IMG/VR virus record: IMGVR_UViG_3300037485_001761
Span: 1-63,612 of that record
Length of the DNA: 63,612 nt
DNA from: a virus
Lineage: Duplodnaviria; Caudoviricetes
Direction: 5' to 3' (one strand)
The number at the start of each line of letters is the position of its first letter. Position 1 is the first letter of the stretch. This document shows, piece by piece, positions 17,910 to 28,841 of the stretch. The notes under the pieces were generated by a model, which was not told where the DNA came from, made no database searches, and saw only the letters and a program-made list of their open reading frames with translations. The position numbers and the translations under genes are program-made.

Positions 17910-20900
17910 ATGGCGACTGAAGAAGAAGTTGACACTGAAGAAACTGGAGCGGATGAAAATTATCAGTACGCCCCTCCGAAGCCTGTGGTGGACGATGAGG
18001 CGCTTGCGATAGCCAAAGCTGAGCTAGCACAAGAAGCTCAACCGGCACAAGAGCAACCAGCTCCCGCTCCCGTCGTAGCTACTCCTAAAGCTCCTCCTAT
18101 TCAAAGGAAGGGAGAGGTGACGGCTGTTGAATTAGACCCGGAGGAATCCGCAATCCTGGATAAGATTTCGGAGATGGCTAGCCGGAAACCGCTGTCGTTC
18201 AAGGAATTGGGAGACGCAATAAAGGGCAAGCCCTACGCCGACCAACAAAAGATAATTGAAGAGAATGAAGCAATCCGAGTAGGTGAAGCCCAGACTCCCG
18301 ACTTCATGGCAGAGGTCATGGGGAAACTTGGAACCTTAGCCAAGGACACCGCTCACACGGTATTCCCGACACTCGTTGACCCGGCCACTGCGGAAGAGAA
18401 CAAGCAATATTACAAACCGATATTCGGTAGAAAATCTACTCCCATTAGCCAGTGGTATGACCCAAAAACCAAGAGAATACCTGCAAACAAGTTAGAAGAG
18501 TTTCTTGCCTATGAACACGCGGGACTCACGCCCGAAAAGAAAGAATTCGTAACGTCAAGAGTATTATCCGCCGTCTCGGACATTCCTCCCGAAGAGATAA
18601 TAAAAGGCCGAGTTCTTGGCAATTCGTCTTCCTCGATAGCCAAGCTTGCTCAGACAATGGACGCTTTATTGTTTCAAGAAGCAGGCAGCAAGTATGCAGC
18701 TTACGGGATTAATAAATTCCTTCGAGAAAAGCCAAAGATGCCTCCTGAATTCTTTTCCCCTGAAGTCAAGAATTACATCAAAGACAACCTTCACAATGGA
18801 GGCTCCGTGGGCACCAATTTGTTCGAACTACAAATCCCCACGGATGCGAAGAACGCCGATGAAGCGATGAAGGAAATGTGGAATACTTATGCCGGGGCTG
18901 CTCGGGATATGTATTTTGAAGTAGGAAAGAATAAATTAGCGGCCAATGCCGGTGTCCCTTTATTGTTTGTTGGGTCTCGAGGCATTGGCGCACTGGCAAA
19001 CCCGCTGACCACAATTGCCGCAAGACGGGGCGTTAAGTTTGGCGGGCAACTCATTGCCTCATTCGTAGAGGGTGGCCTTATGGCCTCGCCTACTGAAGCA
19101 GAAGGTAAAACCTGGACAAGTACCCTGGCCGCCGGTGCCTTAGGTGCGGGATTCCACGCCGTGGGTGAAGGAGTCGCCAAAGTATTCTCTTCCAAAGCGG
19201 GAGTTGACGTTGACGCTTCCCCGAGGCAAAACAGAGAACTTCAAAAAGAAAGACAGGTAGCCGAAGCATTTCCTAATGCAAAAACCGAACACCTCATGCA
19301 AGTGGCTAGAGGCGAAGTGGACATTCCCAATGTGCTTGAATCGGACAAGCCCGCCCTACGGCAAAAAGCCGGAGAGATGGCTAAGGGACAAGTTATCAAG
19401 GATGTGGTTGGAGATGTTCCTATTTCCCCGGAAACGATGGAAGTCGTCCTCAACCAAGGGGTAAGAGATAAAAGGGTTCAGGAACAGCTTGACCACATGA
19501 TGGCCATAACGGATGGCGTGACTCCGCAACAAAAGATGACGGACACGGCGTTTAAGAAGACGATGGCACAGATGCCGAAGGAAACAGCCGAGTTGATGCA
19601 AGGGCTCAGGGATTCCGCAGACTATAAATTAGCCCTCGAGTCTCCTGAGAGAATGCAAGAACTGTTAAGGAGTAAAGGCTTAGAACATGCTTACTCTCCC
19701 TTCGATTATGAGTTGCAAAAGACAGTCGCCAACAAGCCATCAATGTACCGACAGTATCTTATCGAATCCGCTAAAATATTAACGGACAACCTCGATGAGA
19801 CTAAACTGACTCGTTATGATTTAGGAAAATCCAGTTCCCGGACAATCAGAAACCTCATTGAGATGAGCGATAATCCCGTTGACTTCAATACGTCTGTTGG
19901 AACCTGGAGAGACTTAAGCACGGATTTAGCGGATAAAGTCGTGAAGATGTCCGACACAGCGTCCTACTTAAAAAAGATAGACGACCCCCGCATTCAATTT
20001 GTCAGGGAGCATATTGATGAAGCTGTCGCCAATAACCGACAAATCGACCGGGGATATGTTATCCAGGAACTTAAGAAAATTGGAGAGGACACCGGGCAAA
20101 CAGGACTCACGGGGAGGATGACTTCCCAGGTTATGGCGTATAACAACATCCTCAACAAGATGGGTGAGGTTAAACAGGACATTCAGAACTCAGTAAGCAA
20201 AACAAACAATGTGAACGTAGCCAGGGAAACTGCGAACAAGAGAGTGCTCCCTCACGAGAACCTTATCAAATCAGCCGGGAGTTACGACGACCCTGTTGCC
20301 GTCGCCGCTAGGTTTAATGAGCACATTAACCCCGCAATGCAGAATCCCAAGATTCCAGCAGAGGTTAGAGCGGCCACCGATAACTTCATCAAACAATCGT
20401 CAATCAATGTGGCGGCGGGAGCCCAGATTCCTAAAGCCTTTGTTGACGGATTTAAGTTAGAAGTCGAGAAAGCCAAAGGCGTTGTCGGGATAAATTCTTT
20501 AAGAGATTTGGCGGGAGCTGTTGAACATTGGAACAAAGAGATAGGCCACATCGATTCATTGAAAGAAACACTCGGGCAATCTTTCGACAGCCCATCCTCT
20601 TTATCGAAGCTTATTCCCGCATTCCAGCAAGCTTCCAAAGATGTTATTTCTCCCGTCAACTTGGAAAGATTGGACACGTATCACAGCTATCTTTCCTCTG
20701 TGTGGACACAGGCACTCGAAGGGACGGGATTGCCGGACAAAACTAAACTCCAGCTCTTCAGCTATCTTTTCGGCGGGACTGAAGTAAAACTTAAAGCAGA
20801 AGCGGATCCTGGAAACATGATACGGACACAGGAACATGCTCAAAATGTGTTGGATGCGTTGACTTCCAACTCCCGAGAAGTGCTTGACACGCTAAACAAT

Positions 20901-23900
20901 ATTCACCAAGAAGTCCTCGGCGTTCCATTGAACCGGGAATGGTTTCTCGCAAATATCGCAACTCCCCTCAACGATTTCAATTCAGGACGAGCGGTAGAAA
21001 AGCTGTTACTCGATGTTAAATCCTATTCCAAACATGTGGAGACAGCGAGAGAAGGTAAAGGTAATCCAAGCACCGCATACCTCGACAGCCTTAATTCAGA
21101 GATGAGAGATTACGAGATAGTCAAGAAAACGAATCTCTCGGTAGGAAATGACTTTTCCGAACTCCAAGGATACGAGAGACTCGCTTCCCATCGAATGACT
21201 AAAGAATTTGGCGGGCTCATTAAAGAAGCCGAAACTAAAATAAAGGGCAAATGGGGCTTGTCCGGTTTCTCGGAGATAGCAGGAAAGTTAACGGGCTCCC
21301 GCGGATTAGCCGGGCTCTATGATGTGATGTACTTGCAAGGCAGGGATGGAGTCGCCTCGCTTACCGATGTAGGCAGGCTAACCAAGAACATCTTTACCAG
21401 TGACTCCCGGTTCGCAGAGTACAAGAAACTGTTTGAAGATTATAAAACCCACGGCAATCCTGAGAAACTTGAAAAGTTTGTCGAAGTCGCGATGCAAGCG
21501 TCTGGCATTGAAGGAGCGAAGATAGCTCAACTCAAGACAAAGAACTTCGTCAATCACTTCATTAACTATTTCTCCGACCCCATCTTGTGGGCAAGCCACA
21601 TCGACCAGGCAATGTGGCGCGAAGGTTTCGAGTACATTAGCTACGCCAACAAAGCTCGGGCTAAATCTTGGGATATTCATGAAGAAGTTATCGCGGCGCA
21701 CAATGAAGCGTACAAACATAAAGACGTGAATCTCCAACCGAGAAAATGGAGAGAGGATTACGTCACGACCAAGAAAGAAAACAACACGGCACTTACGGAC
21801 ACCCATGACTCTATCTATCTGACAGAAGATTTAAGCAGACGCTTTGGCTCTAGCTTAAAAGGACAGCTCGATAAAGCAAATGAGATAGGCGTTGAACAAC
21901 TCATGCACCCCGCTCGTGGATTGATTCAGGATCTCCAAGCAATGGTCAGAGATTCTCACACCGCTCACTCCAAATCCTACTTGCAGGAGCACGGAGTTCT
22001 TCTTCAAGCGCTAGGCTACACCGCAGAATCCAAGGCGATAGCAGAAGCGATAAAGAGGGAAACCCCCGCCGCGATTGGTGAGATAAGGAGAAACTTGTCC
22101 AAGGTAAACACCTATAACTTTCTCCAGAATGTGGATGCGCTAGGGGCCGCTCCGATCATCAACACAATTTTTAAATCTCTCGGCTACTATTTACCGCAAA
22201 TCTTGTTAAGCCATCCTGCAAGTATTATCAAGAATGTTATCCAGCAAGGATTGCGCCAAGCCTCCTTCACCAAAGGTGGAGTAGCGGCTATCCCTCAATT
22301 CTATTGGAGTACCCTCCGAGGATTTCTTTCTGACTCATACATGCCAATGGCGTCGTATATTACTCCAGCGTCCCATAAGGCGGTTAACCGAGTCGGTAAA
22401 TTACTCACAGATAATGTGAAACGGTCAGAAGTTAAATTCATTGACCAGATGTCCCAGATTACCGACAAGGCAGGAAGTAGAAAAGACGTAGCAGGAAAAG
22501 TGGTTGAGGCCCTCACGGGAATAACACCAAAGAACGCGATGTCTCCGATAGCGCGGGGGGCAAGATTCCTGGAACGGGTTGTCGACACCTCGGCAGAAGG
22601 AGCTACCGGATTACTGAAAGAACGGGTTGAAGCGAAGATGTCCAAAGCTTCACTGGCTCGGGGAGCTTATGTTTTCGAGAAAGCACTCGCTGTGTACCAG
22701 AAAGAAGGCATCCAAGGAATGTACGAGTACTTGAAACCGCAGATGGGCACGAAGACAAACACGCATGTGTGGAATCTCGCTCAAACAGTAGACAGGATAA
22801 CGAAAGAAGGCGGCGACCCTTTCGCCCATGCCATTGATGACTTTATCCTTATGTACCACGACAACGCAGTCGGTAGATTCGGGCCACGGAACTCTCCCCT
22901 CATCCTCACCAAGCTAGGGGCTAGCACTCTTATGCCCATGGGGACACGGTTCTTCAGTGCAAAGACAAATGACTTGTACCGCATGGGCATGACAGGCCGA
23001 GAACTACATAGCGCTGCGGGAAAGCTAAGTGCCGGTCATAAAATTCCTCCCGCTATCGGAGGGCGCATCCTCTGGTCAATGATGACCGCAAGCGGCATTG
23101 GGCTGACGACGTGGGGTTTGTACGAAGGAGTGGAAAGTATCCTTGGAACTAGTACCCAAGACAGAAGCGATATGGAGCAAGAGACAGCGCTTCGAAGGAT
23201 GTATCGTCACGGGACAGGGATTGACATCACCGGGACAGCCCCCATAGATGTGAAGTTCTATAAGGATTTGGGAAGTAAAATATACCAAGGAGACTTAATG
23301 GGAGCAGGCGGGATTGCGGCGACTGCCTTTATTGACTCTAGCCGTCAAAGAGGAATTCCCTTTGCGGGGCCTGAATTAATGGAAGTGTGGAATTCCCTGA
23401 AGACACTCAATGAGACAACGGGGGATAAGATTCCCATCCTTGACCGGATTACGTCCAACCTTGATAGGATGACGGCAGAGTTGAACAAGTTGAATCAAGA
23501 GAGGGCACAAATTGCTCAGACTCCGGAAGGCTACAGCAAAGAACACGTTGCGGGGATAGACACTCGGATAGAGAAACTTATCGAAGATGTGTCCGTCACT
23601 AAAGCAAAATATGAAAAGTCGATGTACGCTGGGATAGCCGATCACATACTAAATAACTTCCCTGCCACGGCCTGGCTCGCTCACGGCTTCCATCCATTTA
23701 CTGTAGCAACGAGCTACCTCGATGCCCAGGCTAATGAACAACTCAACCGAGATAAATGGGAAGCGTTAGCCGAAGACGGAAAGGTCGGGCCACTAGGATT
23801 AATACAACAGTTCATGGGGATGACTGCTCAGGGAGACAGGAATATTCAGGTATCCCAAGCATTCTACTCACGGTATTACCAGCCCATGGTCGAGCACGGC

Positions 23901-24155
23901 TTATTGTCTGCCAAGCAAGCGGATACCTACGCAAAACAAGCGTACCAATATGACGCCATGTTGACAGAGTTAGACGCTGACTTGAATCTTTTGATACAAT
24001 CAGAAATGGTACCAGGGAAGAAGCCATTGGAAAAGATTAAGAACAAAGTAGCTCCGACTATGCGGATACCAGCTCCCGAAATATTCTACCGAGAACTTTC
24101 TCCTGAAGAGAAGGTTATCCAGCAAAACTCTATTTTACCCAGAGGAGGTAAGTGA
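17910..24155 (+). CDS. Giant (2081 aa) internal virion/ejection protein
   Basis: Size, helical composition, Gly-rich hydrophobic stretches; last gene of virion block; no catalytic motif recognised. Confidence 0.55.
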   Translation: MATEEEVDTEETGADENYQYAPPKPVVDDEALAIAKAELAQEAQPAQEQPAPAPVVATPKAPPIQRKGEVTAVELDPEESAILDKISEMASRKPLSFKELGDAIKGKPYADQQKIIEENEAIRVGEAQTPDFMAEVMGKLGTLAKDTAHTVFPTLVDPATAEENKQYYKPIFGRKSTPISQWYDPKTKRIPANKLEEFLAYEHAGLTPEKKEFVTSRVLSAVSDIPPEEIIKGRVLGNSSSSIAKLAQTMDALLFQEAGSKYAAYGINKFLREKPKMPPEFFSPEVKNYIKDNLHNGGSVGTNLFELQIPTDAKNADEAMKEMWNTYAGAARDMYFEVGKNKLAANAGVPLLFVGSRGIGALANPLTTIAARRGVKFGGQLIASFVEGGLMASPTEAEGKTWTSTLAAGALGAGFHAVGEGVAKVFSSKAGVDVDASPRQNRELQKERQVAEAFPNAKTEHLMQVARGEVDIPNVLESDKPALRQKAGEMAKGQVIKDVVGDVPISPETMEVVLNQGVRDKRVQEQLDHMMAITDGVTPQQKMTDTAFKKTMAQMPKETAELMQGLRDSADYKLALESPERMQELLRSKGLEHAYSPFDYELQKTVANKPSMYRQYLIESAKILTDNLDETKLTRYDLGKSSSRTIRNLIEMSDNPVDFNTSVGTWRDLSTDLADKVVKMSDTASYLKKIDDPRIQFVREHIDEAVANNRQIDRGYVIQELKKIGEDTGQTGLTGRMTSQVMAYNNILNKMGEVKQDIQNSVSKTNNVNVARETANKRVLPHENLIKSAGSYDDPVAVAARFNEHINPAMQNPKIPAEVRAATDNFIKQSSINVAAGAQIPKAFVDGFKLEVEKAKGVVGINSLRDLAGAVEHWNKEIGHIDSLKETLGQSFDSPSSLSKLIPAFQQASKDVISPVNLERLDTYHSYLSSVWTQALEGTGLPDKTKLQLFSYLFGGTEVKLKAEADPGNMIRTQEHAQNVLDALTSNSREVLDTLNNIHQEVLGVPLNREWFLANIATPLNDFNSGRAVEKLLLDVKSYSKHVETAREGKGNPSTAYLDSLNSEMRDYEIVKKTNLSVGNDFSELQGYERLASHRMTKEFGGLIKEAETKIKGKWGLSGFSEIAGKLTGSRGLAGLYDVMYLQGRDGVASLTDVGRLTKNIFTSDSRFAEYKKLFEDYKTHGNPEKLEKFVEVAMQASGIEGAKIAQLKTKNFVNHFINYFSDPILWASHIDQAMWREGFEYISYANKARAKSWDIHEEVIAAHNEAYKHKDVNLQPRKWREDYVTTKKENNTALTDTHDSIYLTEDLSRRFGSSLKGQLDKANEIGVEQLMHPARGLIQDLQAMVRDSHTAHSKSYLQEHGVLLQALGYTAESKAIAEAIKRETPAAIGEIRRNLSKVNTYNFLQNVDALGAAPIINTIFKSLGYYLPQILLSHPASIIKNVIQQGLRQASFTKGGVAAIPQFYWSTLRGFLSDSYMPMASYITPASHKAVNRVGKLLTDNVKRSEVKFIDQMSQITDKAGSRKDVAGKVVEALTGITPKNAMSPIARGARFLERVVDTSAEGATGLLKERVEAKMSKASLARGAYVFEKALAVYQKEGIQGMYEYLKPQMGTKTNTHVWNLAQTVDRITKEGGDPFAHAIDDFILMYHDNAVGRFGPRNSPLILTKLGASTLMPMGTRFFSAKTNDLYRMGMTGRELHSAAGKLSAGHKIPPAIGGRILWSMMTASGIGLTTWGLYEGVESILGTSTQDRSDMEQETALRRMYRHGTGIDITGTAPIDVKFYKDLGSKIYQGDLMGAGGIAATAFIDSSRQRGIPFAGPELMEVWNSLKTLNETTGDKIPILDRITSNLDRMTAELNKLNQERAQIAQTPEGYSKEHVAGIDTRIEKLIEDVSVTKAKYEKSMYAGIADHILNNFPATAWLAHGFHPFTVATSYLDAQANEQLNRDKWEALAEDGKVGPLGLIQQFMGMTAQGDRNIQVSQAFYSRYYQPMVEHGLLSAKQADTYAKQAYQYDAMLTELDADLNLLIQSEMVPGKKPLEKIKNKVAPTMRIPAPEIFYRELSPEEKVIQQNSILPRGGK

Positions 24156-25483: not shown

Positions 25484-25797
25484 AGCATAAACCGTTGAGA
25501 GATAAGCTTACTACCGAAGGTGGTGGTAGAGCGTACCATATGGTTTCAAGTAAAATAGCGAAAGATTCTTCGGGAAATCCTCAAGTAGTCACTGTGGAAA
25601 GAGAGAAGATGATGGAAAAGCTCGGAAGAAATCCCGGAAGAGATATTGTAGCTATGCATAAAACGGGAGGCTCCCACTTCAATCCGAAGGGCGACCCTTT
25701 TAAAATGGGCACGAGAGCCGAAAATACGAGTGACTCAAACAAGGCTAGAGCGAAGAAGTTTAAAGATAAATTCAAGACGGATAAGGCTAAGAGTTAG
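25468..25797 (+). CDS. Small basic HNH-endonuclease-like protein (degenerate)
   Basis: R..ME.KLGR....IVAMH....GTRAENTSD resembles the HNH_3 pattern; likely start MKHK at 25480. Confidence 0.45.
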   Translation: MGQFMKHKPLRDKLTTEGGGRAYHMVSSKIAKDSSGNPQVVTVEREKMMEKLGRNPGRDIVAMHKTGGSHFNPKGDPFKMGTRAENTSDSNKARAKKFKDKFKTDKAKS

Positions 25798-26050
25798 CTC
25801 GGGAATGGAGATACTGATTCAAGGGGCGTGGAGATTTTGAAGCGTCCCACTCACTTTCAGCGGGTTTAACCAATCCATGTTTCGGGTGAAGCACGGCTCG
25901 GTTCTTCTGAAAACAGGATTTGCAGACCGTTAGAAAATTCTTAGGGCTCGGAGTTTTAGTGGTTTTATTCCGCAATATTCCTTGCATCGGTTCCACCGTT
26001 TCCTGGCAAAAGTAGCAAGCTTCCGCGTATCTGTTTGGTCGGTTTATCAT
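25787..26050 (-). CDS. Small Zn-finger protein translationally coupled to Ro60
   Basis: CYFC and CKSC pairs; ATGA overlap with the TROVE stop codon. Confidence 0.7.
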   Translation of the reverse strand: MINRPNRYAEACYFCQETVEPMQGILRNKTTKTPSPKNFLTVCKSCFQKNRAVLHPKHGLVKPAESEWDASKSPRPLNQYLHSRANS

Positions 26051-27615
26051 GAATTAATAAACTCCGTAAAGATAGCCGGGGACGCCGTATCAAAGCCCAC
26101 TAAATCCATTCCATGAACATCTTCAGGATCGTTAATCGTAAACTCCGTCGCCGTCATACCCCACACGGCTAACTTTACCTTCGGATTGTTGGCAAAATTC
26201 CGGTAAGCGTTTAACGCGGCAGTAGGATGCTCTCCACTGTTAGTCTCGTTATCGGTGAACACGGCAAACGCATCAATGTTCTTCACGTTCCTCTTTATCG
26301 CGTGGTTAAACGGAATGGAACAATCTGTTCGGTCAAACGGGAGGTTCGAAATAGTCTTTATCACCTGGCTCATATCCATCCCAGCATGAATCCGCAACGG
26401 GATAAACCCCCCACTGAAGCCCCAGAATTCGTGAGACTGGCACGACCTAGCAACCACCATGGCCATAATTGCGGAGGCCTCACGAGGAGTAATCCTCATC
26501 CCTCCACAGGAGTCGGAGGCCATCGACCCGGACACGTCCAACGCTAACAGCACATTCTTATCCGACTTCTCAATGTTGCCGAAGGAGGCGTAGAACGCTG
26601 TCATTAAAGCAGAGATAATGGCGGGAGACGGGAGCCAAGATAATGAGCCCTTCTCACCATGTCCTTCCATATAAATTTTCGCCGCATTGTACAGAAACAA
26701 AGGATGGACTTTGCTTCGTTTCACTTCTTCTTCATCCAACAAACGGCTGACTATTTGCCCCGTCCACTTGCTAAAGGGAGCGATAATTCCGAGAGACGTA
26801 AGCCTCCCCAAGTTTCTCACCAACGCCATTAACGGGGTATTGGGCAATAGAGCTTCCCACACTTCTCGAGTCGTTAAATGTTCCGTAGGAATCATTTCCC
26901 ACGTCATCTTGTTGGCAGTGATAACCCGGCAAACCCTGTCCGTGTCCTTCTCCGTCTTCAGCGATTCATAAGCCTCAATCAATGGATGAAGCTTTTCCAG
27001 GGGCTCGGACTTGCCGACAACCCATTTAAGGATGGAATTCTTCGCGGCGTCCCTTGTCCTTGGATGCGACAACCGGAGAACATCTCGATGCGTCCAACCA
27101 TTTCGCTGTCGATATTTAACCACTTGATACGCAATCTTATCGGCATCTTTTTCGGTGTAAAATCGTGCTACGGAATTTCGTAACCCGTGGCCCCATTTCT
27201 GCACATAGTCTACAAACTCGAAAAGAAACGTCGAATAGCCACACAACGTCGGGATTACTTTGTACGCTTCTTTCTTGGCTTCCGGTGTCCCGTAAACCAG
27301 GACAAGGGACAAGGCAAACAGGCACGGAGATTTCTTCGGAGCCCGGTTGCTGTTCGCGATTTCTACGATTTCTTGTACCACTCTCACGCCGTCAACGGCG
27401 AGGAGGTCAATAACGACCTTCGCATTCTCTGCGGTCATTTCCTTCGCAGTTGCATAGTAGCTACCGTTCGAAGAACCAAGAATAAGGAATCGCTTTAAGC
27501 TGTCCCAAGGATTTAACTTGAACACATAAGCGCCACAGTTATTGGCAACCATCGGTTTTCCGGGAATGGGAGAAGAAAGATTCGGAGTAAAAAAAGAAAG
27601 ATAAGGATTAGGCAC
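26047..27615 (-). CDS. rsr: Ro60/TROVE-domain RNA-binding protein with vWA domain (Rsr ortholog)
   Basis: RFLILGS..GSYY, KYRQRNGWTHRDVLRLSHP, ALVRNLGRL, MIDAS DVSGSM, FTDNETN, D.VGFD; GTG start with AGGAG RBS. Confidence 0.95.
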   Translation of the reverse strand: MPNPYLSFFTPNLSSPIPGKPMVANNCGAYVFKLNPWDSLKRFLILGSSNGSYYATAKEMTAENAKVVIDLLAVDGVRVVQEIVEIANSNRAPKKSPCLFALSLVLVYGTPEAKKEAYKVIPTLCGYSTFLFEFVDYVQKWGHGLRNSVARFYTEKDADKIAYQVVKYRQRNGWTHRDVLRLSHPRTRDAAKNSILKWVVGKSEPLEKLHPLIEAYESLKTEKDTDRVCRVITANKMTWEMIPTEHLTTREVWEALLPNTPLMALVRNLGRLTSLGIIAPFSKWTGQIVSRLLDEEEVKRSKVHPLFLYNAAKIYMEGHGEKGSLSWLPSPAIISALMTAFYASFGNIEKSDKNVLLALDVSGSMASDSCGGMRITPREASAIMAMVVARSCQSHEFWGFSGGFIPLRIHAGMDMSQVIKTISNLPFDRTDCSIPFNHAIKRNVKNIDAFAVFTDNETNSGEHPTAALNAYRNFANNPKVKLAVWGMTATEFTINDPEDVHGMDLVGFDTASPAIFTEFINS

Positions 27616-27628
27616 AAGAATCTCCTAT

Positions 27629-27705
27629 GGCGGATGAATTATTTCCTCTATCGGTAGAGATTCTCGCTCAAGGCGGGAAATAACGATAAAGGAAGCGACC
27701 CGCGC
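27629..27705 (-). ncRNA. Y RNA-like ncRNA 3 (short, no tRNA module)
   Basis: 5'-GCGGGUCG..UUCAUCCGC-3' terminal stem with bulged C; second stem UUCCUUUAUCG/CGAUAGAGGAA; directly upstream of rsr RBS. Confidence 0.75.
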
Positions 27706-27721
27706 GGGGGTTATAATATTT

Positions 27722-27844
27722 GACCCAGAGAAAAGTTGTCATCCATAATGTTCTACCATTGAACTATTCCCGTTGCCGGGAAGTAGGATTCGAACCTACA
27801 TTCTTCTTATGCAAAAAGATAATGGAAAAACAGCGCCCTGAGTC
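27722..27844 (-). ncRNA. yrlA: YrlA-type Y RNA with circularly permuted tRNA-like domain
   Basis: GACUCAGGG(C)G/UCUCUGGGUC terminal stem; T arm GUAGG-UUCGAAU-CCUAC, then closed acceptor stem UUCCCG-GCAA-CGGGAA, then D arm UA-GUUC-AAUGGUA-GAAC; adjacent to Ro60 gene. Confidence 0.9.
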
Positions 27845-27862
27845 CTCTAAAGTAGGGCGATG

Positions 27863-27931
27863 TGTGCCGATGAATAAATTGCCAATGGGGAGTATTTTCG
27901 TAGAATAACCCATCAACAGTCGACCGACACA
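27863..27931 (-). ncRNA. Y RNA-like ncRNA 1 (short, no tRNA module)
   Basis: 5'-GUGUCGGUCGA..UUCAUCGGCAC-3' stem with bulged C; second stem UGUUGAUGGG/CCCAUUGGCA; starts at predicted TSS. Confidence 0.8.
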
Positions 27932-27936
27932 ACGGG

Positions 27937-27965
27937 GTTGTAACTGAAAACAAATAGGTTGTCAA
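27937..27965 (-). promoter_or_regulatory. Sigma70 promoter of the Y RNA-rsr operon
   Basis: TTGACA(27965-27960)-17 nt-TACAAC(27942-27937); predicted +1 near 27931 matches the 5' end of Y RNA 1. Confidence 0.75.
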
Positions 27966-28220
27966 CTCGTCATATGCAAAAAGAATAGAAATATTTTAAC
28001 CCCCCGATTGCGTTTAGCTTTCATGCATGAAAAAATAAAAGGACTAAACCAGCAAGCGGCGGTGTAGACTGTCGATTCCTTACTAAAATTCGCCCGTCAA
28101 CCTTCTATCGGTTCGGGCCTTTTTCTTTGATAACGCTTTTGACTCCTTCCTTTTCTTTTCCACTGAAAACCGTGGTACGCTCAAAGCAGGAAATAAATCG
28201 CAGTTAAGGAGGTACCCTCT

Positions 28221-28841
28221 ATGACAGAGATTCACTCTGAGTATAACAAGAAGTGGAAGGTTACTAATGCCAATTTATGGCTTTCCCAACGTTATCGAGA
28301 ATGTCCTCTTATTGCCGATGACATTCTTCGCGCTGTCTCTGCGACCACGATAAATCCATATGTAATGTTCACCGTGGGATGTGTCACTTCCCAATGGTAT
28401 AGCCTGCCGAAGTGCGATTATTTCGCCTGTGGGCTCGAGGGAAGCTTGGAAGACCAAATCGTCAATGCCTCGATTGCGTGGCAAGAGAAGCAAGAAATTG
28501 GAGAGCTGAATCTGAACGAAGGGCAACTCAACACCTTTGACATTGTGTGGCGGAACCTGAGTAGGTTTATGGACGCTTTTTTGGATAAACCCCCTGACCC
28601 TCTGCCGAAGCCACCAGAGCCTCCGAAGCCGCCTAAACCTCCTGAGCTACCTCCCACTCTCCCCGAGCCCCCTACGCCGCCGGAAGCACCCAAGGCTCCT
28701 GGGAACTGGAAGAATGCTCTCGGAATCTGGGTGGGCGTGTTGAGCGCGGCAATGGTTGTTGCTAAAATCTTTTTACCTGGCCCTGTATCAGCGGTTCTCG
28801 ATGTGATATTGAAACTTTTGAAAGCTATCGTTGGAAGTTAA
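28221..28841 (+). CDS. Hypothetical protein with Pro-rich linker and C-terminal membrane segments
   Basis: AAGGAGG RBS; PPEPPKPP repeats; hydrophobic C-terminus. Confidence 0.7.
   Translation: MTEIHSEYNKKWKVTNANLWLSQRYRECPLIADDILRAVSATTINPYVMFTVGCVTSQWYSLPKCDYFACGLEGSLEDQIVNASIAWQEKQEIGELNLNEGQLNTFDIVWRNLSRFMDAFLDKPPDPLPKPPEPPKPPKPPELPPTLPEPPTPPEAPKAPGNWKNALGIWVGVLSAAMVVAKIFLPGPVSAVLDVILKLLKAIVGS

What the first reader, a model, noticed from the sequence alone, without database searches (positions are those of the whole stretch)
27722..27844. Circularly permuted tRNA mimic (YrlA-type) with an extra variable-arm hairpin
The order of elements is T arm (GUAGG UUCGAAU CCUAC), acceptor stem closed by a GCAA tetraloop, then D arm (GUUC AAUGGUA GAAC). 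The anticodon arm is replaced by the Ro-binding stalk, so the RNA has no anticodon or CCA end. A further hairpin UCUUUUU-GCAU-AAGAAGA occupies the variable-arm position. Invariant tRNA bases (U8, A14, G18G19, UUCGA) are retained, so it should fold an L-shaped elbow. It could act as a decoy for tRNA-elbow-binding enzymes or nucleases (inference).
Basis: partly seen in the sequence, partly recalled or inferred. Interest (0 to 1): 0.75.

Follow-up and report, generated by a model that had tools for sequence, protein, structure and literature searches.

The report
Phage Y RNA beside Ro60 gene
This is a tRNA-shaped small RNA gene of the known YrlA (bacterial Y RNA) type, lying just upstream of a Ro60 protein gene in an uncultured phage; it is a clean new example of a known system, not a new kind of RNA.

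Summary
On the minus strand, 27844-27722 folds exactly as described: a closing stalk, a variable-arm hairpin, a T arm, an acceptor stem closed by GCAA, and a D arm (z -3.5). ARAGORN finds no tRNA.

The next gene downstream on the same strand, 106 nt away, is a full-length Ro60/Rsr ortholog. The window is a 63.6-kb virus record.

Rfam YrlA matches only the T/acceptor/D core (32.3 bits, gathering score 69). A covariance model I built from 18 Rsr-linked viral relatives, without the window, matches the window once, full length, at 27848-27711 (75.7 bits, E 6e-17).

The variable-arm hairpin is not an oddity. V stem-loops and long class-II-like variable loops are already described for YrlA (PMC4201824; bioRxiv 10.1101/312249). 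V regions of about 20 nt are typical of the viral relatives.

Directly upstream, at 27935-27852, lies a probable second, short Y RNA that lacks the tRNA-like domain.

Verdict: new member of a known kind. Function is inferred by analogy: an Rsr-Y RNA particle that engages host PNPase or tRNA-binding proteins.

The parts
27722..27844 (-). YrlA-type Y RNA: stalk plus tRNA-like domain. The family-model match spans 27711-27848.
   Evidence: MFE fold. Rfam YrlA core hit at 27750-27800. Model R1 full-length hit, 75.7 bits, E 6.3e-17.
27836..27844 (-). 5' strand of the closing (Rsr-binding) stalk. The motif GGCGCUG (27837-27831) begins at its inner end and runs into the internal loop.
   Evidence: Pairs with 27722-27730. 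All 8 modelled outer-stem pairs are standard in the R1 alignment. The motif is read.
27722..27730 (-). 3' strand of the closing stalk.
27802..27819 (-). Variable-arm hairpin: 7 bp with a GCAU loop, preceded by UUA of the UUAU (YUAY) motif at 27822-27819.
   Evidence: Family comparison of V regions.
27783..27799 (-). T arm: 5 bp with loop UUCGAAU.
27767..27782 (-). Closed acceptor-like stem: 6 bp with a GCAA loop.
27750..27764 (-). D arm: 4 bp with loop AAUGGUA. UA (the positions of tRNA U8 and A9) precedes it at 27766-27765.
27852..27935 (-). Probable second, short Y RNA. It has the stalk with GGUCGACUG...GGGUUAU but no tRNA-like domain; the stem spans about 27931-27864.
   Evidence: R1: 11.8 bits, E 0.0037 in 621 nt. 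R2: 13.2 bits, E 0.31, the only hit in the window. Single signature match in the window. Fold.
26047..27615 (-). rsr, a Ro60 ortholog of 522 aa with a GTG start.
   Evidence: Pfam TROVE 3.2e-40 and vWA_Ro60 2.7e-45. NCBIfam Rsr 388 bits. PHROG 850. PDB 1yvp 6.5e-95 and 2nvo 1.4e-91.
25787..26050 (-). 87-aa ORF that overlaps the rsr stop by 4 nt, with two CxxC pairs. Whether it belongs to the system is unknown.
   Evidence: No Pfam, NCBIfam or PHROG match.
27937..27965 (-). Promoter-like site: TTGACA, 17 nt, TACAAC. It is placed to start transcription at the 5' end of the short Y RNA.
   Evidence: Read by eye. Not reported by the scan, because the second hexamer lacks the final T.

Best explanation
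27844-27722 (minus strand) encodes a YrlA-type Y RNA of an uncultured tailed phage. A base-paired stalk formed by the RNA's 5' and 3' ends carries the Rsr-binding 5' motif. It takes the place of a tRNA anticodon stem. On top of it sits a tRNA-like domain with a V hairpin, a T arm, an acceptor stem closed by a tetraloop, and a D arm. That domain should fold into the tRNA L-shape.

The RNA is most likely transcribed with a short Y RNA just upstream (27935-27852) and perhaps with rsr itself, then processed. It would be bound by the phage Rsr ring encoded 106 nt downstream.

By analogy with bacterial Rsr-Y RNA-PNPase particles and with Thermus phage phiLo, the RNA then acts as a tether or gate. 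It would link Rsr to host PNPase and/or to a protein that recognises the tRNA elbow, so changing RNA decay or tRNA-directed processes in the infected cell.

Shown here: sequence, fold, family membership by model, gene context and family-wide covariation. Inferred: expression, Rsr binding, the L-shape, and the effector.
For: - Fold and elements.
- Local Rfam YrlA match to model positions 30-81, 32.3 bits, E 9.4e-7 for the record.
- Model R1, built from 18 viral RNAs next to Rsr genes and excluding the window, matches once, full length: 75.7 bits, E 6.3e-17, with all outer-stem pairs standard.
- Ro60/Rsr gene immediately downstream on the same strand.
- In 80 viral Rsr loci, R1 finds 64 matches in 42 loci, all 64 on the rsr strand, 49 upstream and 15 downstream of the rsr start.
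- On that alignment, 20 of 23 pairs change on both sides and 92.5% of cells pair, against 39-45% when partners are slid.
- Other features read: UUAU (YUAY) begins the V region; A at the position of tRNA base 15 and U at that of base 48 can form the Levitt pair; the bases corresponding to tRNA U8, A14 and G18G19 and the T-loop UUCGA are all present.
- Literature: YrlA RNAs lie within 4 kb of Ro60 on the same strand, include phage examples and often have a V stem-loop. Salmonella YrlA is modified by TruB and DusA and is complexed with Rsr and PNPase (PMC4201824, sections 5, 6 and 10 read). Phage phiLo Ro60 with two upstream Y-like RNAs binds host PNPase and attenuates it (PMC12135203, passages read).
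Against: - The Rfam gathering score is not reached (32.3 against 69), and only the core aligns.
- The published 5' motif GNCGAAN0-1G is not met strictly; the window has GGCGCUG.
- NCBIfam's Rsr equivalog cut-off is not reached (388 against 900 bits).
- There is no evidence of expression, of RNA ends or of binding.
- The sequences used to build R1 were picked with a T/D-arm pattern generalised from this element, so agreement in the core is partly by construction. Only the stalk, the UUAUC block and the overall length are independent.
- The A4 alignment is fitted to the model, so its pair counts lean towards the structure.
- No close relative of this phage was found: the best Rsr identity is 47%. 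Conservation of this particular RNA therefore cannot be checked.
Confidence: 0.85

Rival explanations
1. It is a cis-acting leader of the rsr mRNA, not a stable trans-acting RNA. The tRNA-like fold would serve as a processing signal (RNase P or Z type) or as an autoregulatory Rsr-binding site controlling rsr expression.
For: It lies only 106 nt upstream of the rsr start on the same strand. The scan found no terminator-like site on the minus strand between 27616 and 27960. In M. smegmatis, YrlA is cleaved by RNase P and is processed from a precursor upstream of Rsr (PMC4201824, passages read).
Against: In relatives the same module also occurs downstream of the rsr start (15 of 64 matches) and in arrays of up to 6, which does not fit a leader. 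Where tested, these RNAs are stable and Rsr-bound (PMC4201824). A promoter-like site inside the 3' half (27742-27713) could give rsr its own start. The two readings are not exclusive.
Confidence: 0.08
2. It is a decoy or sponge that works without Rsr. The tRNA-like elbow, and perhaps the V hairpin, would soak up a host tRNA-targeting defence nuclease or a tRNA-modifying enzyme during infection.
For: The tRNA tertiary-contact bases are conserved. The T and D stems are nearly invariant across relatives. Wang et al. 2018 expect an elbow-binding effector (bioRxiv 10.1101/312249, discussion passage read). A Ro60-like phage protein was reported to counter a defence system (PMC11482910, one passage read).
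Against: Nothing here tests it. The strict linkage to rsr and the conserved Rsr-type stalk argue that the RNA works with Rsr. No defence target is known for this uncultured phage.
Confidence: 0.05
3. It is a decayed remnant of two adjacent tRNA genes (T arm of the first, D arm of the second) with no function of its own.
For: The same T-to-D pattern is produced by tandem tRNA genes. Most of the 121 pattern matches in viral contigs looked like such pairs on inspection. A dimeric-tRNA origin has been proposed for YrlA (bioRxiv 10.1101/312249, discussion passage read).
Against: The 16 nt between the arms are a perfect 6-bp hairpin with a GCAA loop, not two acceptor strands and a spacer. ARAGORN finds no tRNA or fragment context in the window. 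The flanks pair into a stalk that aligns with the Rsr-linked family over its full length, and that family shows compensatory changes.
Confidence: 0.02

Closest known systems
YrlA RNAs (Rfam RF02553; S. Typhimurium, M. smegmatis and mycobacteriophage examples; Chen et al. 2014, PMC4201824)
   Same: Order of elements: T arm, closed acceptor stem, D arm, on a stalk formed by the two ends. Nearly invariant T and D arm sequences. YUAY at the start of the V region, and a possible Levitt pair. Same strand as a Ro60 ortholog and within 4 kb of it. A V stem-loop is present, as in many members.
   Different: Below the Rfam gathering score (32.3 against 69 bits). The 5' motif is GGCGCUG, not GNCGAAN0-1G. 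The V stem is long (7 bp). The host phage is an uncultured sediment virus whose Rsr is at most 47% identical to any protein found and about 40% identical to those of actinobacteriophages.
Thermus phage phiLo Ro60 with Yrl1 and Yrl2 (PMC12135203)
   Same: A phage Ro60 gene with two Y RNA-like genes directly upstream. A stem-bulge-stem stalk carrying a CG-centred motif.
   Different: The passages I read of that paper do not mention a tRNA-like domain in Yrl1 or Yrl2. The window's Rsr is far closer to canonical Ro60 (1yvp, E 6.5e-95) than to the phiLo protein (9kop, E 3.1e-9).
Class II tRNAs (long variable arm)
   Same: D and T arms with the tertiary-contact bases, and a base-paired hairpin in the variable-arm position.
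   Different: Circularly permuted relative to a tRNA. The acceptor stem is closed, there is no CCA end, and there is no anticodon arm. Not detected by ARAGORN or, above threshold, by the Rfam tRNA model.
D. radiodurans Yrn1 and metazoan Y RNAs
   Same: A stalk from the paired termini that binds the Ro60 ring. In the viral relatives both strands of the stalk are conserved (consensus). Chen et al. 2014 describe this for D. radiodurans and metazoan Y RNAs.
   Different: Metazoan Y RNAs have no tRNA-like domain, and Yrn1 has its arms in a different orientation (PMC4201824, section 10). No Rfam Y_RNA match was listed at E up to 10.

Membership tests
YrlA (Rfam RF02553) | Score at or above the Rfam gathering score (69 bits) | tested here: not met
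   32.3 bits, model positions 30-81 only. In 7 viral loci searched, the 6 YrlA matches also stayed below it, at 35.4-44.3 bits.
YrlA (Chen et al. 2014) | Nearly invariant T and D stem-loops in the order T, closed stem-loop (AS), D | tested here: met
   Posterior probabilities are at or near the maximum across the core alignment.
YrlA (Chen et al. 2014) | Encoded within 4 kb of a Ro60 ortholog on the same strand | tested here: met
   The RNA's 3' end (27722) is 106 nt from the rsr start (27615), same strand.
YrlA (Chen et al. 2014) | GNCGAAN0-1G motif near the 5' end (putative Rsr contact) | tested here: not met
   The window has GGCGCUG: GNCG is kept, AA is not. Viral relatives vary here too, with GCCGGAG, GUCGUAG, GUCGCUG and GCCGAAG. 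The short upstream RNA has GUCGACUG.
YrlA (Chen et al. 2014) | Conserved YUAY at the start of the V region | tested here: met
   UUAU at 27822-27819. It aligns with the family block GGUUAUC.
YrlA (Chen et al. 2014; Wang et al. 2018) | Bases for tRNA-like tertiary contacts, including a 15:48 Levitt pair (G:C or A:U) | tested here: met
   The bases at the positions of tRNA U8, A14, A15, G18G19 and U48, and the T-loop UUCGA, are read from the aligned sequence. Only the potential for the contacts is shown, not the contacts themselves.
YrlA (viral Rsr-linked relatives, own model R1) | Full-length match including stalk, UUAUC block, V region and core | tested here: met
   75.7 bits, E 6.3e-17, model positions 1-147 of 147, the only hit in the window. 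It ranks 23rd of 65 matches.
YrlA / Y RNA | Bound by Rsr in vivo; pseudouridine 55 and dihydrouridine made by TruB and DusA | not testable with these tools
   No RNA data: no listed run is on record as RNA.
tRNA | Cloverleaf order with an open acceptor stem, an anticodon arm and a discriminator/CCA end | tested here: not met
   ARAGORN finds 0 genes. Rfam tRNA gives 13-16.1 bits against a gathering score of 29. The acceptor stem is closed by GCAA.
Ro60/Rsr protein (the neighbouring gene) | TROVE ring domain plus C-terminal vWA domain, full length | tested here: met
   Pfam PF05731 and PF25045. Aligns over residues 16-516 with Xenopus Ro60 1yvp. The NCBIfam equivalog cut-off is not reached (388 against 900 bits).

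The most novel reading that the evidence does not exclude
The hairpin in the variable-arm position of viral YrlA RNAs may be an anticodon-arm mimic or relic, not a class-II-type variable arm. In 8 of 39 distinct relatives it is a 3-4 bp stem with a 7-nt loop of the anticodon-loop form YU-NNN-RA, followed by a 5-6 nt linker like a tRNA variable loop (shuffles 0.23 +/- 0.47, maximum 2 in 500). Together with the elbow, it could let the phage Rsr-Y RNA particle capture host anticodon-directed enzymes or defence nucleases. The window's version, a 7-bp stem that can also be drawn as 5 bp with an 8-nt loop, would be a derived form.
Probability: 0.1. Interest if true: 0.6.

Novelty: new member of a known kind. 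Interest (0 to 1): 0.3.

Why it matters
It adds a well-defined Rsr/Y RNA locus from an uncultured sediment phage that is far from the actinobacteriophages where phage YrlA RNAs were first seen.

It also shows that the curated Rfam threshold misses this RNA, and missed all 6 YrlA matches in the 7 other viral loci I checked. Viral Ro60 genes are common: 366 of 387 candidate viral stretches encode a relative. They usually carry one to several Y RNA modules on the same strand.

For phage biology the locus is a candidate tool for reprogramming host RNA decay or tRNA-directed processes. For annotation it shows that such modules go unannotated or can be mistaken for tRNA fragments. It does not open a new category.

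Tried and rejected
- Rfam at gathering thresholds: no match in the window.
- ARAGORN: none.
- Single-protein scan of viral contigs for close relatives of the window Rsr: none. No close relative of this locus could therefore be aligned.
- blastn of 27616-27960 against annotated phages: only 40-60-nt matches to the T/D core or to T arms, 0 of 22 records covering 80% of the query.
- Pattern scan for a T loop, 12-30 nt, then a D arm in viral contigs. Only 3 foreign loci had an Rsr-like tblastn hit in the DNA held. On inspection most of the others are adjacent tRNA genes; I did not classify them formally.
- One Rfam call was over the size limit and was repeated with fewer loci.
- A third Y-like candidate at 28128-28025(-): R1 3.7 bits, E 0.37, fold z +0.52. 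Rejected.
- The nematode sbRNA family hit on the short RNA (21.2 bits, E 0.34): below threshold, kept only as a hint of Y-RNA-like shape.
- RtcB in the record: none.
- Homologs of the two flanking ORFs in the 80 viral Rsr loci: none at E 0.01 or better.
- Public runs: no RNA holder listed.
- The 2020 Annual Review on bacterial Ro60 (PMC10870794) is not held.
- Supplementary tables and figures of Chen et al. 2014, which list the phage YrlA RNAs and their V arms, could not be seen.
- Two searches for later work on phage YrlA listed nothing describing this phage group. I read passages of two listed papers (PMC12135203, PMC11482910) and only the listings of the rest.

Full report
**What is there.** Read on the minus strand, 27844-27722 contains, in order:
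- a 9-nt 5' stalk strand
- an internal loop and a short helix
- a 5-bp stem in the place of a tRNA anticodon stem
- UUAU
- a 7-bp hairpin with a GCAU loop
- AU
- a T arm (GUAGG/UUCGAAU/CCUAC)
- a 6-bp stem closed by GCAA
- UA
- a D arm (GUUC/AAUGGUA/GAAC)
- the returning strands of the stem, helix and stalk

The unconstrained fold of these 123 nt gives exactly this structure: -38.7 kcal/mol, z -3.53, with 1 of 200 shuffles folding as well. ARAGORN finds no tRNA or tmRNA anywhere in the window. No Rfam family reaches its gathering score in the window.

**What it is.** With permissive thresholds, Rfam's YrlA model matches 27800-27750(-). The match covers model positions 30-81 of 114, that is the T arm, the closed stem and the D arm, at 32.3 bits against a gathering score of 69. 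E is 1.6e-4 in 2.5 kb and 9.4e-7 for the whole record.

The next ORF on the same strand, 26047-27615, starts 106 nt after the RNA and is a full-length Ro60/Rsr ortholog:
- Pfam TROVE and Ro60 vWA domains
- NCBIfam Rsr at 388 bits, below the equivalog cut-off of 900
- PHROG 850, RNA-binding protein
- end-to-end similarity to Xenopus Ro60 (1yvp, E 6.5e-95), human RO60, and D. radiodurans Rsr (2nvo, E 1.4e-91)

The window is a 63.6-kb IMG/VR virus record estimated 88% complete. The neighbours are an endolysin, a Holliday-junction resolvase, a primase and a DNA polymerase, so it is a tailed phage. The locus lies in a 605-nt non-coding gap between rsr and a divergent gene.

**Relatives.** The closest Rsr proteins are 47% identical or less. 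Annotated phages reach about 40% (385 records, mostly actinobacteriophages). No close relative of this RNA exists in the collections I searched.

I therefore worked at family level. An alignment of Rsr proteins found 366 viral stretches encoding a relative, and 80 loci were fetched. From these and three earlier loci I picked 18 RNAs with a T/D-arm pattern and aligned them with flanks. I then built a covariance model, R1, without the window sequence.

R1 matches the window once on either strand, at 27848-27711, full length, with 75.7 bits and E 6.3e-17. All eight modelled stalk pairs are standard, and the family block GGUUAUC aligns with the window's CAUUAUC.

One caveat applies. Because the training set was chosen by its T and D arms, agreement in the core is partly by construction. 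The stalk, the UUAUC block and the spacing are independent.

Over the 80 loci, R1 finds 64 further matches in 42 loci. All are on the rsr strand, 49 upstream and 15 downstream of the rsr start, and 13 loci carry two or more. On the resulting alignment, 20 of 23 pairs show changes on both sides. 92.5% of cells pair, against 39-45% with slid partners and 68% in shuffles. That alignment is fitted to the model, which favours it.

**The variable-arm hairpin.** It is real, but it is not an extra.
- Chen et al. [quoted passage not shown]
- Wang et al. 2018 state that many YrlA species have long variable loops like class II tRNAs that can form short duplexes (bioRxiv 10.1101/312249, passages read).
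- In my set, 39 distinct matches have a T arm. Their V regions are mostly 17-21 nt; the window's is 20 nt. Folded alone, 22 of 39 form at least 4 bp and 14 of 39 at least 5 bp. The window's 7 bp is the maximum, shared with one other.

**Membership details.** Met:
- element order
- invariant T and D arms
- linkage to Ro60 on the same strand
- YUAY
- a possible A15:U48 Levitt pair
- the bases for the other tertiary contacts

Not met:
- the Rfam gathering score
- the strict GNCGAAN0-1G motif; the window has GGCGCUG

The viral relatives also vary at the two A positions of that motif (GCCGGAG, GUCGUAG, GUCGCUG, GCCGAAG). In addition, 6 YrlA matches in 7 other viral loci all scored 35-44 bits. These failures therefore say more about the breadth of the curated model than about this RNA.

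**A second RNA.** Immediately upstream, 27935-27852(-) folds into a long bulged hairpin. Its 5' half reads GGUCGACUG, then 5 nt, then GGGUUAU. That is the family's stalk motif and UUAUC-type block, but with a short loop in place of the tRNA-like domain.
- R1 scores it 11.8 bits, E 0.0037 in the 621-nt gap.
- A second model, R2, built from nine such short viral RNAs, gives 13.2 bits, E 0.31. This is its only hit in the window.
- The signature GGNCG, 8-12 nt, GGUUAU occurs once in the window, here. About 0.39 matches are expected by chance over the whole window. By my arithmetic that is roughly 0.001 for this interval and strand.
- In the 80 viral loci the same signature occurs 75 times on the rsr strand and twice on the other, against 2.35 per strand in shuffles. 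62 are upstream of rsr, and 19 of 33 loci carry two to six copies.

Tandem Y RNA arrays are thus the rule, and I rate this second RNA as probable (about 0.75). A perfect TTGACA with a 17-nt spacer and TACAAC lies just 5' of it (read by eye). The scan found no terminator-like site on this strand before rsr. This fits a precursor that is processed, as reported for M. smegmatis (PMC4201824, passages read).

**How it probably works.** Established for relatives:
- Y RNAs bind the Ro60 ring through the stalk.
- In D. radiodurans and S. Typhimurium they are complexed with Rsr and PNPase.
- Salmonella YrlA is modified by TruB and DusA (PMC4201824, section 10).
- Phage phiLo Ro60 and its two upstream Y-like RNAs bind host PNPase and slow it (PMC12135203, passages read).
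- A Ro60-like protein of phage Bas63 was reported to counter a defence system (PMC11482910, one passage read).

By analogy, the phage would make an Rsr-Y RNA particle that engages host PNPase or a tRNA-elbow-binding protein. None of this is tested for the window. No RtcB is encoded in the record, and no RNA data set holds the stretch.

**Verdict.** It is a new member of a known kind, of modest interest.

Noticed in passing
window 27852-27935 (-): Probable short Y RNA lacking the tRNA-like domain, directly 5' of the YrlA-type RNA. It carries the family signature GGNCG, 8-12 nt, GGUUAU.
   Followed up: yes
L120-L199 (viral Rsr loci): Tandem arrays of Y RNA modules on the rsr strand are common. 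The signature occurs 75 times on the rsr strand against 2 on the other, and 19 of 33 loci have 2-6 copies. Nine matches of 76-84 nt are stalk-only forms. Both strands of the stalk are conserved in the consensus.
   Followed up: partly
L122, L123, L140, L144, L151, L158, L165, L194 (V regions): In 8 of 39 distinct viral YrlA-like RNAs the V hairpin has a 7-nt loop of the anticodon-loop form YU-NNN-RA with differing middle triplets, followed by a GGUC-type linker. The sequences are related, so the shuffle control overstates significance.
   Followed up: partly
L201:2465-2600 (Klebsiella phage KP2025, PP919962.1): Unannotated YrlA-like core (R1 59.8 bits, E 8.4e-14; stalk not matched) about 280 nt after a DUF2828 gene and ahead of a tRNA array. 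It fits the suggestion in PMC11482910 that some 'tRNAs' next to a Ro60-like phage gene are Y RNAs.
   Followed up: partly
window 25787-26050 (-): 87-aa ORF overlapping the rsr stop by 4 nt, with two CxxC pairs (possibly a zinc ribbon). No family match, and no homolog in the 80 viral Rsr loci.
   Followed up: partly
window 28097-28127: Strong GC-rich hairpin in the gap between the Y RNAs and the divergent gene, with U-rich runs on both strands. It is possibly a bidirectional terminator. It underlies the rejected third Y-like candidate.
   Followed up: no
window 17910-24155 (+) and 28221-28841 (+): A 2081-aa ORF with no PHROG match. A 206-aa ORF with a proline-rich repeat and a hydrophobic C-terminus, and no family match.
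   Followed up: no
L025 and about 20 other loci: A recurrent T-arm, 19-21 nt, D-arm unit, present in three copies in L025. It looks like repeated adjacent tRNA genes with very short spacers and not like YrlA. Judged by eye only.
   Followed up: no
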